Virus genome (UHGV): UHGV-1833545
Length of the DNA stretch: 10,664 nt
Direction: 5' to 3' (one strand)
From: a virus
Position numbers: made by a program. The stretch's first letter is position 1, and the number at the start of each line of letters is the position of its first letter. This document shows, one piece after another, positions 1-6,000 of the stretch.

Positions 1-3000
1 TCTCATATTCCTATCGCCATGCCGTGGGGCATGGATGGGGCAAAGTCCGATAATTTCTGGTTCAACATAGCAATCTGATCGCTGCTGCTGTCGGCCATCC
101 AGGCGCCGTAAACATTGAAAACCATCTGGGCGCTGGAGTGCCCCATTTGGCTGGCAATGAAACTCGGATTGGCCCCGGCAGACAGCGACCAGCAGGCGTA
201 AGTGTGTCTCGACTGATACGCCTTGCGGTGCCTTAAACCTGACCGTTTAAGCGCCGCATCCCATGAGTCACCAACTGAATCGGCTTTGTACAGGTAACCC
301 ACGCTGCCACTTTTTTTAACCAACTGAGGATTGAACACAAATGTACAGTCGTGAATGACCGTTCGGCCATACTCCCGCAGTTGTACCTCAACCTGATACT
401 GCCTGCCTAACCTGGTCATTTCCGCCTGGTTCCTCAAAGCGTCAATGGCTGGCTTGATCAGGTGAACGACCCTGTCGGTACCGGCTTCGGTTTTTGGTAG
501 AGTGAAATCACCGAGTTTCGTATAATTCCGGCGTATGGTCATCGTTCCAGTTTTCAGATCTATGTCTTCCCATGCGAGGGATACCAGCTCACCGTAGACG
601 TAATCCTGTGTATACCGCAATTGACCACAGGTTTTTCGTTTGCTGATGCTTGCAGGCATCTATGAAGCGAACGAATTCATCACGTGTGAGCGGATCTGGT
701 TCTATCCTGGCCCTCTTTAGCGGCTTGATGCCGTTAAACGGGTTTTCACTCACATAGCCATTATCAACAGCAAACTGAAACATACCCGCGATCGTGGTCA
801 TGTAGTAGTTTACCGTCACCACACTCAACCCTTTATCCCCCGCCAGCATATCCTTCCTGATATAGAGAAGCTCTTCTCTTGTCACAGACGAAACCAGCTT
901 ATTCGCGCCAACCCTCGGCAGCATGCTTCTAACCACCGATTCGTACCTGTTTATGGCATTAGCGCAGATCTCCATCCGTTTAAGCTCAAGCCATTTTTCA
1001 GACAGATCTTTTACGGTGATATCTTTCTTCCCGATGCCGAAAGTTTTCAGATTTGGCGAGTTGGGGAATTGGGCCGCATAGTCAAAGGTCCCCATGCGGA
1101 TAGCGAAACAAACTGACGTTCTCAGCTCCCCGGCCACCTTCCTGTTTTTAGCGGTGTCAGGGACACCGAGGTTTTCCCTGACACGCTTACCTTTAAAAAT
1201 GAACCATATGCGGAGTGACTTTCCGTGGTTCTCAACGCCCGTTGGGTATGATTCTTTACTCATTTATCCCTCCCGACGTCCAGGAGCGTTGCAAGTTTAC
1301 CTGTTTCATACCGCCCGATCACCCAATGGTTGCTTTTGCGCCTGAATCCATGCGTCTACCGCTTTGCGGTTGTACATGCATTCGCTGGTTGGCTTTGGCT
1401 CTCCTTCAGGGGAAACGTGCTTATACTCCCGGCCAAGCAGCCAAGATGATTTACGGGCCCGTGTAATGGTGCCGCGCTTCATCCCAGTGACCGCCATCAG
1501 CAAGTCCTCTGAAACCCATTCGTTTGGCTCGATCTGGATAATTGTCTGCATTTATCACCTCCGATGCTTACCGCGTAATTCCTCTTCTTCCTGACAGTCA
1601 GCACAGCGCTGGCATCCCGCCACCAGTTCCCTGCGCCGCTCGGGTATCTCTTCCCCGCAGTCGCGGCAGTGAGTAGCCGAAACTGCATGATGGTTGATGC
1701 GCATGTTCTGGATGGTCATTTCAAGCCGGCGTTCTGCCAGCTCGTTGGCCTAATCGATGAGTTCTGCGCTCATGCTGAAACTCCCTTAACTGCCAGAAAC
1801 GTAGCCATCGCTTTATCAACAATCTTCGAATTGTGGTATTTGCTGATTGCCCAGGTGATAGCGAATAGAATCCAACGGAAGTGACTGGTATACGTTTTAA
1901 ACGTCAGGCCTTCGCAGACATCCCAGGCGCTCCAACCAGCTGGCCAATCAGCGTCATAAACAGCCTGATAAGCCTCCCATTCGTTATTGAAGTCAGCTCG
2001 GCATAAGTCGCGGACGATTTCGCGTAACACTGCTTTGTCGCTATCCGGTGTATCGTCATCGTCGTCCCAGTCTTCATCCTCTTCTGTTTCAGCATCTTCA
2101 TCGTCCTTCAGGTAATCACTCAGAGACTCTTTCAGACTTTTGCAGAACGCGTCGTGGTCATACTCTTTCGCCAGCATTTCTCGTGCCGAACATCCCGCGC
2201 CAGCCTCCAGCTTTTCAGCCCAGTAATGGGTATTGATTCCACCCTCCCAGGCGCCAAAAAAGTCGAACATGTCCACGATGCGACTGAATGTCCAGGTTCC
2301 CATGTCGCCGGTTACGGTCAAGTAACCAGGCCATGTGATAACGTCGTAGTAGTAGCAAGATGTTCCCGGCTGCTGCATGCGCAGGTGGCGATACAGCCCA
2401 TCGTCACGGATGATTTCCAGACGGTGAAATGCGGTATCAATCAAAAATCGTGAGTCAATTTCGAAGAAGCTCATAACTCGACTGCCTTACTCAGCTTCTC
2501 GCCGAGCGCAAAGATGTAGTCGCGTAACTCTTCCAGTGACTGCGCTTCTGATTGCAGAATTTCACGATGGCAAAGTTCTTTCACCAGGTGCTCAAACTTG
2601 CTGTAATAACCGATACGGCTTAGTGTTTCTTTCCCTGCATTCTCACCTTCTTTGATAATTCCTCTTTCATTAAGAATCAGGTCGTGTTTGGTTCCGGTAA
2701 TAACGTATTTGCCGAGGTCGATGTTTAGCTTCATTGTTTTCATTGTTAATTCCTCAGTCATTACTGATAGCGCCATAGCGTGAGCGGTAATTACGCAGGC
2801 GCGGGTCAATTTCAGGGAAGTGGGTATATGTGGCTTTGCGGAATGGTCGGATTGATGTCTGGTAAATTCGCTCTCGTTCTTCTTTCTCTGCAAGCCATAT
2901 ACAGTGGCGAAATTCCTTTTCCTCTTTCGTTTCCTGCGGTAGAGACATTATTCGATCGTAGTTTTTTCTGAATTTATCCAGCACCTCCGATACGGAATTG

Positions 3001-6000
3001 CCGGAACAGCGGCGCGCGTCATCCGCACCATACAGAGGCGCTGGCATAATGGGAGCCTTATCTTCAGTAATCAGAAAGGAGGGTAATCGTTCTGGCTGTA
3101 ACCATAATCATCTGCATGATTCTGGCTTACGTTTTTAGAGCGATTGTCTTTATCTTTGAGGCTGGCAACCATGTTGGAGATAGTTTCTGGTTGCTTGCCT
3201 TCCGCCTTTTCTTTAAGGGTTTGACCTGTTTTTGCAATAAACGGGATGCGTATTTCCATCTGGTAGCTGTCTGCGCCAGTCTTTTTGTTTGTGGTTAATA
3301 CTTTCTGGAGCACTAACCCGATTTTCTTTCCATGAAATTCAGGAGCAACAAATTTACTGGCGGAAACCATATGTTGCGTTAATTGTCCAATCCCGGCACA
3401 CCCCATCATGGCGTGAACGACATTTGCGCCAAATTTGTTTTCCGTTCCGTCATTTTTCTGAACACAGACGCTAAGATATTGGATTTTACGTCCGTCGTCT
3501 GATTCGCCAGAAAACTCAATAAATTTGGCTCCTTTTTCTGATTGCTTTAGTTCTGCTTCAGTAATGGTAATGATATGAGCGCCAGTTTCGTTAATAAAAC
3601 CACCTTGCCCTGCGGTCAGAGCTGCTTCTTCGTTATAAGTAAAAATCACGTTGCTCATGCGGCGTTTTCCTTAATTTGATGAACATTATTGATGCCGTAG
3701 TAATCACAAACAGTGGCATCGACGAAAGAGAGATCGTTATCAATCTCATTGGAGTCAAACATTCCCATTGGGGATTTAACAGTGTCTGCACCGTTGTTTT
3801 TCGTGGTGAAAAAGAACTGGTCATCACGGGTAAGGGTGCGAAGAACTATAGTAAACATGCCTTCGACAGTGATTTTTTCGTCCAGCATTTTGCCGATAGT
3901 CTTCATTTTCACGCGCCCCATAGGGGTTTCTTCGGTGTGTGCAAGAAAATAGACTCTCAGGTCATCAGGTGCATCCTGTGCAGCCTTAATCACCTCCCAT
4001 GCGTGGCGGCCTATCTCAGTAAATTTATCAAACGATTTTTCTTCTGAGCGGCGCATAAACTCATTGCTCATCACATACTGGAAGTCATCAACAATAACGA
4101 TTCTTTTCCCGTATTCGTGAGCACGCTTAATTACGGCAACTATTACGTCCCATTTGTCAGTGGTAACTACGGTTCCTTTTTTTGCTCTGGCATCCCATGC
4201 CATTCTTTTGATTTAAATGGTAGCGGCTTGCCTATTGGTTTTATAAGTATTGCTTCCTCTGGATTGATATTTCTCATGCTGGTTGATTTTCCGGTGCCAG
4301 ATTCACCGAGTATTAATGTTGCAGTTCCCATAATTTTCCTCAGAATGGTAATTCGGATGGGGATGAAAGAAACTTGCGCTCATTCATGCGCTCTCTTTGC
4401 GCCTGCCATAAGCAAAGTTGTTTCTTTGATTTATCTCCCGCTTTACGCCAGTAACGAGCCTCAGCAATGTGATACTCTCTTTTTAATCGACTTAACTCTG
4501 GAGTTTTCGCCAGCTCTACCGGAATCATTTTGACCTCCATTTTCTGTAGGCTTCGACGGCCTCACGAAACATCTTTTCATCGCCAATAAAAGTGGCGATA
4601 GTGAATTTAGTCTGGATAGCCATAAGTGTTTTATCCATTTTTGGGAACTCCTGGCTGATTAAGTACGTCGATGAGTCGTTTCCATCCGTCACGTAATTTG
4701 CGGGTGATTCGTTCAAGTAAAGATTCGGAAGGGCAGCCAGCAACAGGCCACCCTGCAATGGCATATTGCATGGTGTGCTCCTTATTTATACATAACGAAA
4801 AACGCCTCGAGTGAAGCGTTATTGGTATGCATATAAAAAGGCCCTCACACTGGAGGGCAAAGAAGATTTCCAATAATCAGAACAAGTCGGCTCCTGTTTA
4901 GTTACGAGCGACATTGCTCCGTGTATTCACTCGTTGGAATGAATACACAGTGCAGTGTTTATTCTGTTATTTATGCCAAAAATAAAGGCCACTATCAGGC
5001 AGCTTTGTTGTTCTGTTAACCAAGTTCTCTGGCAATCATTGCCGTCGTTCGTATTGCCCATTTATCGACATATTTCCCATCTTCCATTACAGGAAACATT
5101 TCTTCAGGCTTAACCATGCATTCCGATTGCAGCTTGCATCCATTGCATCGCTTGAATTGTCCACACCATTGATTTTTATCAATAGTCGTAGTCATACGGA
5201 TAGTCCTGGTATTGTTCCATCACATCCTGCGGATGCTCTTCGAACTCTTCAAATTCTTCTTCCATATATCACCTCAAATAAGTGGTTTGCTGCCTAATTT
5301 CATTTTCTGGCGACCAACACAAGTCACACCCATTTCACTGCGTGGCTTGCTGTACCATGTGCGCTGATTCTTGCGCTCAATACGTTGCAGGTTGCTTTCA
5401 ATCTGTTCGTGGTATTCAGCCAGCACTGTAAGGTCTATCGGATTCAGTGCGCTTTCTACTCGTGATTTCGGTTTGCGATTCAGCGAGAGAATAGGGCGGT
5501 TAACTGGTTTTGCGCTTACCCCAACCAACAGGGGATTTGCTGCTTTCCATTGAGCCTGTTTCTCTGCGCGACGTTCGCGGCGGCGTGTTTGTGCATCCAT
5601 CTGGATTCTCCTGTCAGTTAGCTTTGAGTAACGCTCCGTGATGCTTATCTCCACGGTTGCTGTCTTGCAGCTGCATTTCGCGCTACTCAAAGCCTTCTGC
5701 TTTGAATGCTGCCCTTCTTCAGGGCTAAATTTTTAAGAGCATCACCTTCATGGTGGTTAGTACGTCCTGCTGATGGCTAAATAGTACGATTTGTACTTTA
5801 TAGAGTCAATACAAAATGTTCTAAATATAATTAGTTTTTTATAACGCTTTGTATTTAATGGGTTTATATTTTGGAAAAAGAAAACCCGACGCTAAGGTCG
5901 GGTTATTGTTGTGTGTTTTAGAGTTGTGAGGCTGTTAACTAAATGTCTCTTCAGGCCACTGGCTGGCGATAACTTTCCCTACTACGGAACAGCTATCATT

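What the first reader, a model, noticed from the sequence alone, without database searches (positions are those of the whole stretch)
3..5200. Four disrupted genes in about 5 kb suggest a decaying cryptic prophage or homopolymer and indel sequencing errors
int (insertion frameshift), the Sak4-like ATPase (A-tract deletion), the TraR-like gene (amber) and ral (ochre) are all interrupted, while the immunity and replication genes look intact. That pattern fits a domesticated prophage kept for immunity, but two of the four lesions are single-base indels, which are also typical assembly errors.
Basis: inference. Interest (0 to 1): 0.4.

Follow-up and report, generated by a model that had tools for sequence, protein, structure and literature searches.

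The report
Four prophage gene lesions, four histories
The four broken-looking genes in this E. coli prophage are real in the sequence, but two are common natural variants also found in working phages, one is a genuine small deletion, and only the integrase frameshift could be an error from a thinly sequenced metagenome contig, so this is ordinary prophage variation rather than a decaying prophage.

Summary
The window is the reverse complement of an ENA metagenome contig, ERZ772887 NODE_1731, with SPAdes coverage of 2.9. It holds the left arm, immunity and replication region of a lambdoid prophage integrated at yecE.

All four interruptions exist relative to intact homologues, but they are not one event:
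- **ral ochre (5016-5018):** a very common 59-aa allele. It is on at least 1000 contigs and is exact in 58 complete E. coli genomes and in phages SfI and phi458.
- **TraR amber (1750-1752):** a standing allele on 29 NCBI contigs. It sits on a 2.47-kb int-xis-traR-orf234 block identical to the window in 8 isolates with divergent chromosomal flanks, all with intact int.
- **Sak4 lesion:** not an A-tract deletion. It is a 4-bp deletion of one GCCA unit from GCCAGCCA (4195-4198), shared with a second metagenome scaffold and seen nowhere else.
- **int +1 insertion (596):** not in a homopolymer, and private to this contig. The sibling scaffold has intact int. Whether it is an error or a recent mutation is unresolved.

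The other 12 proteins checked, including every other gene of the immunity and replication region, exactly match widespread alleles. The late genes lie off the contig. A domesticated cryptic prophage is not supported, and sequencing error is excluded for three of the four lesions.

The parts
3..1263 (-). Tyrosine integrase gene (yecE-site type). It is split by a +1 insertion at window 596 into an N-terminal ORF (589-1263, 224 aa) and the remaining catalytic part (3-588).
   Evidence: the intact 419-aa homologue (WP_016244761.1) differs by this one base. Arm-DNA-bind_2 plus Phage_integrase domains; the 224-aa product is on 1 contig, the intact exact protein on 452; 0 mutant against 11 wild-type matches in IMG/VR and JGI metagenomes.
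596..596 (-). The private single-base insertion in int. It is not in a homopolymer, and it creates ...GLR-LR-TGA immediately after the first catalytic Arg.
   Evidence: it is the only site in window 1-5400 with no supporting 21-mer in any other fetched sequence.
1306..1551 (-). Excisionase (DUF1233), intact.
   Evidence: E 1.5e-34; the exact protein is on at least 1000 contigs.
1555..1773 (-). TraR/DksA-family zinc-finger gene (counterpart of lambda Orf73) with Q8 amber at 1750-1752. Gene callers report the 54-aa ORF from Met19 (1555-1719).
   Evidence: CAG->TAG. (PF01258, phrog_54); the same TAG is in 9 of 10 sampled isolate contigs and in L007; 29 contigs against 85 and 47 contigs for the two full-length alleles.
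1770..2474 (-). orf234, function unknown, intact.
   Evidence: phrog_4657; the exact protein is on 157 contigs.
2754..3047 (-). abc2 anti-RecBCD gene, intact (97-aa allele).
   Evidence: PF11043, E 5.6e-63; the exact protein is on at least 1000 contigs; the two substitutions against the sibling scaffold are synonymous natural alleles.
3071..3658 (-). DUF669-type phage SSB, the cognate partner of Sak4. Intact.
   Evidence: phrog_743, E 8.6e-66.. PMC5928155 describes the hkaM-sak4-ssb-abc2 module.
3655..4331 (-). Sak4-like ssDNA-annealing ATPase gene, split by a 4-bp deletion. The N-terminal ORF (4167-4331, 54 aa) carries Walker A. The C-terminal ORF is 3655-4203 (182 aa).
   Evidence: reference GCCAGCCA against window GCCA; phrog_2872, E 3e-108 for the intact homologue; the split form is only in L006 and L007; 0 of 154 complete genomes; 0 of 9 IMG/VR matches; the intact exact protein is on 966 contigs.
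4195..4198 (-). The remaining GCCA unit. One unit of a 2 x 4-bp tandem repeat is deleted here, a slipped-strand signature.
   Evidence: local alignment.
4176..4182 (-). A_AAA_AAG heptamer (dnaX type). After the deletion it lies in register in the zero frame, 6 nt before the TAG that ends the N-terminal ORF.
   Evidence: a simulated -1 slip gives a 225-aa protein identical to the reference except LAWDARAKK->HGMPEQKK; no downstream structure.
4340..4771 (-). hkaM-like orf62 (4340-4528), kil (4525-4638) and cIII (4631-4771), all intact.
   Evidence: gene calls (Lambda_Kil, Lambda_CIII). (phrog_1723).
5016..5195 (-). ral, 59-aa allele. TAA at 5016-5018 stands where lambda has AAA; the lambda-type ORF would run on to 4995.
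   Evidence: (PF11058, 1-59 of 66, E 4e-44); at least 1000 contigs; 58 complete genomes match exactly over 81 nt and are annotated as normal Ral; phages SfI and phi458 are identical, and the SfI CDS is 180 bp.
5274..10642 (.). N (5274-5600, -), cI (5935-6630, -), cro (6706-6921, +), cII (7041-7334, +), orf90 (7357-7629, +), O (7692-8579, +), DnaB-type helicase (8576-9952, +) and HNH/AP2 endonuclease (10031-10642, +). All intact.
   Evidence: same lengths as the annotated references; every protein is an exact match to proteins on many other contigs (194 to at least 1000 contigs for six; cI and DnaB indexed in 2899 and 607 blocks of the collection).

Best explanation
The window is part of a low-coverage metagenome contig. 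It carries the early-left, immunity and replication regions of an otherwise normal lambdoid prophage of E. coli integrated at yecE. The four interrupted genes are four unrelated variants of different age, all in accessory or integration functions.

1. ral-59 is an old, very common allele that also occurs in infectious phages. It probably still encodes a working Ral (inferred).
2. The TraR amber is a minority standing allele. It travels on an int-xis-traR-orf234 block that has recently spread, base-identical, among divergent E. coli hosts with a functional integrase. It removes the N-terminal ExxDxA tip that corresponds to the essential DxxDxA motif of TraR and lambda Orf73. By analogy with lambda orf73 mutants, it costs only a few-fold in phage yield (inferred).
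3. The Sak4 lesion is a real slipped-strand deletion of one GCCA unit, specific to this strain lineage. It most likely knocks out the phage's own recombinase, leaving the phage dependent on host RecA (inferred).
4. The int +1 insertion is private to this one contig. It is either an uncorrected read or assembly error, or a very recent mutation that would lock the prophage in place. The sequence alone cannot decide, and I put the two at about even odds.

There is no evidence of domestication for immunity.
For: - **Source and coverage.**: the window equals the reverse complement of L006 positions 3913-14576, contig name cov_2.898.
- **Lesions defined.**
- **ral-59.**
- **TraR amber.**; the 2,474-bp phage block has 0 mismatches to 8 isolates, whose yecE-cmoB flank differs from the window's by 1.3-3.4%, and all have intact int.
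- **Sak4 deletion.** (shared with L007). It is absent from 154 complete genomes and from 9 IMG/VR matches.
- **int +1.** It occurs only here, and L007 has intact int.
- **Sequence quality.**: no other unsupported site in window 1-5400; the two substitutions against L007 are shared natural alleles; twelve other proteins are exact matches to widespread alleles.
- **Functional context.** PMC9239242: the DxxDxA motif is essential, and loss of orf73 lowers yield 3-4 fold. PMC5928155: the Sak4-SSB-Abc2 module.
Against: - Two lineage-restricted or private inactivating changes (Sak4, int) sit in a region that otherwise has no private substitutions. That is more disruption than neutral mutation would predict, so early decay of this particular prophage copy cannot be excluded.
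- Independence of the two metagenome contigs (same or different sample) could not be established.
- The late genes are not on the contig.
- No functional data exist for Ral lacking its last 7 residues.
Confidence: 0.8

Rival explanations
1. Early decay of a locked-in prophage. Both the int +1 and the Sak4 deletion are real mutations of this strain's prophage. It can no longer excise and has begun to lose accessory functions, while immunity is retained.
For: - The Sak4 deletion is real and lineage-specific.
- The contig shows no detectable substitution errors in window 1-5400. Since substitution errors normally outnumber indel errors, a lone indel error is not especially likely.
- The insertion is not in a homopolymer, so it does not look like a typical platform artefact.
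Against: - The sibling scaffold has an identical host flank, the same Sak4 deletion and the same TraR amber, yet its int is intact. So the frameshift is at best very recent or not fixed.
- The contig has only 2.9x k-mer coverage.
- All 12 other proteins are exact copies of common alleles, so there is no sign of relaxed selection.
- The late genes are unobserved.
Confidence: 0.4
2. All or most of the lesions are sequencing or assembly errors of a low-coverage contig.
For: - Coverage is 2.9x.
- The int +1 is seen in no other sequence.
Against: - Three of the four lesions recur in independent assemblies, including isolate genomes and phage genomes.
- The 4-bp deletion recurs in a scaffold from another pipeline.
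- There are no private substitutions in window 1-5400.
Confidence: 0.03
3. The split Sak4 is still expressed at a low level. After the 4-bp deletion, ribosomes meet A_AAA_AAG in register and slip -1, which restores the original frame.
For: -: the heptamer is in register. The -1 product is 225 aa and identical to the reference apart from 8 residues replacing 9.
- PMC1851650: in E. coli, C-AAA-AAA gave 25-60% -1 frameshifting and rescued single-nucleotide deletions.
- A zero-frame stop lies 6 nt downstream.
Against: - There is no stimulatory downstream structure (z -0.22), and no clear upstream SD-like element.
- The replaced segment lies between Walker A and Walker B and may not tolerate substitution.
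- Only two contigs carry the allele, so there is no evidence of selection.
Confidence: 0.15

Closest known systems
Lambdoid prophages of E. coli integrated at yecE (for example in strains BY63 and W444, and in isolates such as GCA_046223885.1)
   Same: The int-xis-traR-orf234 block is 99.8-100% identical. The attachment site next to yecE/yecN/cmoA/cmoB is the same. The early-left gene order is the same.
   Different: The window has one extra base in int. Its recombination module (Sak4-SSB) and immunity module come from other mosaic partners.
Phage HK620 recombination module hkaM-sak4-ssb(DUF669)-abc2 (PMC5928155)
   Same: The gene order and families are the same.
   Different: Here sak4 carries a 4-bp deletion that splits it after Walker A.
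Lambda Orf73 / F-plasmid TraR (PMC9239242)
   Same: It is a small C4 zinc-finger protein encoded between the recombination genes and xis. The full-length allele has ExxDxA at the position of the N-terminal DxxDxA motif.
   Different: Here an amber codon lies inside that motif (Q8). Only a 54-aa C-terminal ORF remains.
Lambda Ral (66 aa) and the Ral of phage SfI (59 aa)
   Same: Residues 1-59 are identical to lambda Ral. The 81-nt region is identical to phages SfI and phi458.
   Different: Compared with lambda it lacks the C-terminal KQNNKAA. Compared with SfI there is no difference.

Membership tests
Cryptic / domesticated defective prophage | Loss or disruption of genes essential for lytic growth (replication, morphogenesis, lysis) | tested here: inconclusive
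   N, cI, cro, cII, O and DnaB are intact and are exact common alleles. The late genes lie beyond the contig end, so they cannot be seen.
Cryptic / domesticated defective prophage | Several inactivating mutations that arose in this resident copy, not inherited alleles of mobile phages | tested here: not met
   Two of the four (ral-59, TraR amber) are standing alleles in phages or prophages with intact int. One (Sak4) is lineage-specific. One (int) is unverified.
Cryptic / domesticated defective prophage | Inability to excise or to produce phage | not testable with these tools
   This needs an induction assay. The int frameshift would predict loss of excision if it is real.
Sequencing / assembly artefact | Variant absent from every independent assembly of related DNA | tested here: not met
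   Not met for ral, TraR and Sak4, which recur. Met only for the int +1.
Sequencing / assembly artefact | Indel located in a homopolymer run | tested here: not met
   The int insertion is in CCGT^GACG. The Sak4 change is a 4-bp repeat-unit deletion, and the A7 tract is unchanged.
Tyrosine recombinase (phage integrase) | Contiguous ORF with arm-binding, core-binding and catalytic domains | tested here: not met
   The intact relative has Arm-DNA-bind_2 and Phage_integrase. In the window the ORF stops two codons after the first catalytic Arg.
TraR/DksA family (PF01258) | C4 zinc finger together with the N-terminal helix carrying DxxDxA | tested here: not met
   The zinc finger is present. The amber at codon 8 lies inside the ExxDxA of the full-length allele. 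The motif requirement is from PMC9239242.
Sak4-like SSAP (PHROG 2872) | Single RecA-core polypeptide with Walker A and Walker B | tested here: not met
   The intact homologue matches at E 3e-108. In the window, Walker A is on a 54-aa ORF and the rest is on a 182-aa ORF.
Ral (PF11058) | Match to the Ral profile | tested here: met
   E 4.4e-44, covering profile positions 1-59 of 66. PGAP annotates this allele as a normal Ral.
dnaX-type -1 programmed frameshift site | X_XXY_YYZ heptamer in the zero frame | tested here: met
   A_AAA_AAG lies in register after the deletion.
dnaX-type -1 programmed frameshift site | Stimulatory downstream stem-loop and/or upstream SD-like element | tested here: not met
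   The fold is no better than shuffled sequence (z -0.22). No clear SD-like sequence was seen by eye.

The most novel reading that the evidence does not exclude
The 4-bp deletion in sak4 happens to place the pre-existing A7G tract in register as an A_AAA_AAG slippery heptamer. Spontaneous -1 ribosomal frameshifting (or transcriptional slippage) would then regenerate a near-full-length Sak4 with an 8-residue substituted patch. On this reading the 'pseudogene' is a leaky, down-tuned recombinase rather than a null allele.
Probability: 0.12. Interest if true: 0.35.

Novelty: already known. Interest (0 to 1): 0.15.

Why it matters
This is mainly a cautionary result. A run of 'pseudogenes' read from a single sequence can be a mix of common functional-length alleles, hitch-hiking nonsense alleles in mobile phages, one true lineage-specific deletion and one possible low-coverage artefact. 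Population context from exact-allele look-ups separates these without reads. The result has no bearing on any open question in phage biology. The only mildly interesting lead is the possible frameshift rescue of Sak4.

Tried and rejected
- **Sample accessions.** A literature search for ERZ772887, SAMEA2737735 and ERZ28663478 found nothing. It could not be settled whether the two metagenome contigs come from one sample.
- **GTDB representative genomes.** Scans for the Sak4 and TraR alleles found no match of either allele.
- **JGI metagenomes and IMG/VR.** These held only wild-type int, wild-type Sak4 and wild-type TraR.
- **Phage collection.** It has no match to this TraR segment at all.
- **PDB.** The sequence search with Sak4 found nothing, so the position of the substituted patch in the fold could not be judged.
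- **Frameshift stimulator.** An RNA fold downstream of the slippery heptamer was negative.
- **A-tract deletion in Sak4.**
- **Right half of the window.** The 21-mer support test left about 20 sites unsupported by my small reference panel. I did not treat these as errors, because every protein there is an exact match to common alleles.
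Full report
**What the window is.** All genes from 3 to 5600 lie on the minus strand. They form the early-left arm of a lambdoid prophage: int, xis, a TraR/DksA-family gene, orf234, DUF5405, abc2, a DUF669-type SSB, a Sak4-like ATPase, orf62, kil, cIII, ral and N. These are followed by cI, cro, cII, orf90, O, a DnaB-type helicase and an HNH/AP2 endonuclease. Exact-protein look-ups traced the sequence to an ENA metagenome assembly. The window is the reverse complement of positions 3913-14576 of ERZ772887 NODE_1731_length_14576_cov_2.898354. The rest of that contig is chromosomal yecE-yecN-cmoA-cmoB, so the window starts at the prophage-host junction and ends at the contig end. 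The SPAdes coverage value of 2.9 is a k-mer coverage. From my own knowledge of SPAdes, this corresponds to roughly 4-6x read depth for 100-150-nt reads.

**Checking the observation.** Three complete E. coli genomes served as intact references: BY63 and W444 for window 1-2740, and GDSC2239PM for 2740-5354. Base-by-base comparison shows the following.
- int has one extra base at 596 (CACCGTGACG -> CACCGTAGACG). The reading becomes ...YTGLR-LR-stop, directly after the first catalytic arginine. The reference protein is 419 aa.
- The TraR gene has CAG->TAG at codon 8 (window 1750-1752).
- ral has AAA->TAA at codon 60 (5016-5018), which removes 7 of 66 residues.
The T7/A7 tract at 4177-4183 is unchanged. 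One GCCA unit of a tandem GCCAGCCA has been deleted, leaving a single copy at 4195-4198.

So the four interruptions are real in the sequence. One was mis-described, only one is a single-base indel, and neither indel is in a homopolymer.

**Population context of each lesion.**

*ral.* The exact 59-aa product is on at least 1000 contigs, as is the 66-aa lambda allele. The 81-nt region spanning the TAA is 100% identical in 58 complete E. coli genomes, where it is annotated as a normal Ral. It is also identical in phages SfI and phi458, and SfI annotates a 180-bp ral CDS. Lambda differs by exactly that one base. This is a common allele carried by infectious phages. It is not a sign of decay or of error.

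*TraR.* The 54-aa product that gene callers report after the amber is on 29 NCBI contigs. The two full-length alleles are on 85 and 47 contigs. Of 10 isolate loci sampled, 9 carry the same TAG, and all 9 have intact int. The 2,474-bp block orf234-traR-xis-int of the window has 0 mismatches to 8 of these isolates. The only difference is the single gap at the int insertion. Their yecE-cmoB flanks differ from the window's by 1.3-3.4%. An identical phage block in divergent host backgrounds means recent horizontal spread, so the amber allele is compatible with a mobile phage. It was not found in 4 complete genomes, in 30 IMG/VR matches, or in the phage collection, which holds no match to this segment at all. 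It is therefore a minority allele.

On function, the amber sits inside ExxDxA, the counterpart of the N-terminal DxxDxA motif. That motif is essential in TraR and lambda Orf73. Loss of orf73 lowers lambda yield only 3-4 fold (PMC9239242). I infer that the gene is probably inactive here, at a small cost.

*Sak4.* The split products (54 and 182 aa) occur on only two contigs. One is the source contig. The other is ERZ28663478 scaffold_4150 (L007), produced by a different pipeline. None of 154 complete genomes and none of 9 IMG/VR matches has the deletion. The intact exact protein is on 966 contigs. A 4-bp repeat-unit loss recurring in two assemblies is a real slipped-strand mutation specific to this lineage. 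The gene belongs to an HK620-type hkaM-sak4-ssb-abc2 module (PMC5928155). Its loss should leave the phage dependent on host recombination (inferred).

*int.* The 224-aa truncated product is on one contig only, while the intact exact protein is on 452. No complete genome carries the insertion. Nor do any of 9 IMG/VR matches or 2 JGI metagenome matches. L007 overlaps 6,260 bp of the source contig and has an identical host flank, the same TraR amber and the same Sak4 deletion, yet its int is intact.

**Error or mutation for int?** Apart from the insertion, the source contig differs from L007 at two sites, window 2874 and 3021. Both are synonymous and both are natural alleles shared with six isolates. 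A 21-mer support test found no other unsupported site in window 1-5400. Twelve other proteins of the window are exact matches to alleles seen on other contigs: 4 contigs for the SSB, 157 to at least 1000 for nine others, and 607 and 2899 index blocks for DnaB and cI. The contig therefore shows no detectable substitution errors. That argues against a generally poor sequence and slightly favours a real mutation. Against that, coverage is very low, and the closest sibling lacks the change. I put the two at about even odds. Only the reads can settle it.

**Interpretation.** The four lesions are not a burst of decay. They are an old common allele (ral), a hitch-hiking nonsense allele in a mobile block (TraR), one genuine lineage-specific deletion (Sak4), and one unverified private frameshift (int). 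All of them hit accessory or integration functions. The immunity and replication genes are ordinary common alleles, which says nothing about domestication. The late genes are off the contig. Disrupted accessory genes are also frequent in the related prophages I inspected. Examples are a frameshifted ral in BY63, an internal stop and partial genes in GDSC2239PM, and a helicase gene left in three fragments in AH21A060. The finding is ordinary.

**A side lead.** After the 4-bp deletion, the N-terminal Sak4 frame reads CA A_AAA_AAG GAA CCG TAG. This is the dnaX-type slippery heptamer in register, followed closely by a stop. A -1 slip would restore the frame and give a 225-aa protein identical to the reference, except that LAWDARAKK becomes HGMPEQKK. 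In E. coli the related sequence C-AAA-AAA gave 25-60% frameshifting and rescued one-base deletions (PMC1851650). No stimulatory structure is predicted here, and tolerance of the substituted patch is unknown. I rate a functional rescue as unlikely but testable.

Noticed in passing
window 4176-4182 (minus strand): A_AAA_AAG slippery heptamer. The 4-bp sak4 deletion brings it into register, and a -1 slip would restore the Sak4 frame with 8 residues replacing 9.
   Followed up: partly
window 8047-8201: A run of 12-nt periodic repeats (CCGCACATGAAG / CCGCACAAACAA / CCGCACATGATG ...) inside the O replication gene. It encodes an AHEA/AQTT-type repeat and may be the iteron region of the origin, as in lambda O.
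   Followed up: partly
window 10031-10642: A 203-aa HNH/AP2 homing-endonuclease-like gene lies directly after the DnaB-type helicase. Several close relatives (for example CFSAN061762, L004) lack it at this position, which suggests a mobile insertion. The exact protein is on 998 contigs.
   Followed up: partly
window 2808-2810: The abc2 anti-RecBCD gene exists as 97-aa and 98-aa alleles that differ by a 3-bp in-frame indel. The window carries the 97-aa allele, which is on at least 1000 contigs.
   Followed up: yes
L001 8400-8497 (E. coli BY63): The closest complete-genome relative has its own, different ral lesion, annotated as frameshifted with about 100 bp missing. This shows that ral is hit independently in related prophages.
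   Followed up: no
window 1-2 / L006 10665 onward: The window begins exactly at the prophage-host junction. The int stop codon abuts the start of yecE (DUF72), and the source contig continues into yecN-cmoA-cmoB. The window's right end is the contig end, so the late region of the prophage is unknown.
   Followed up: yes
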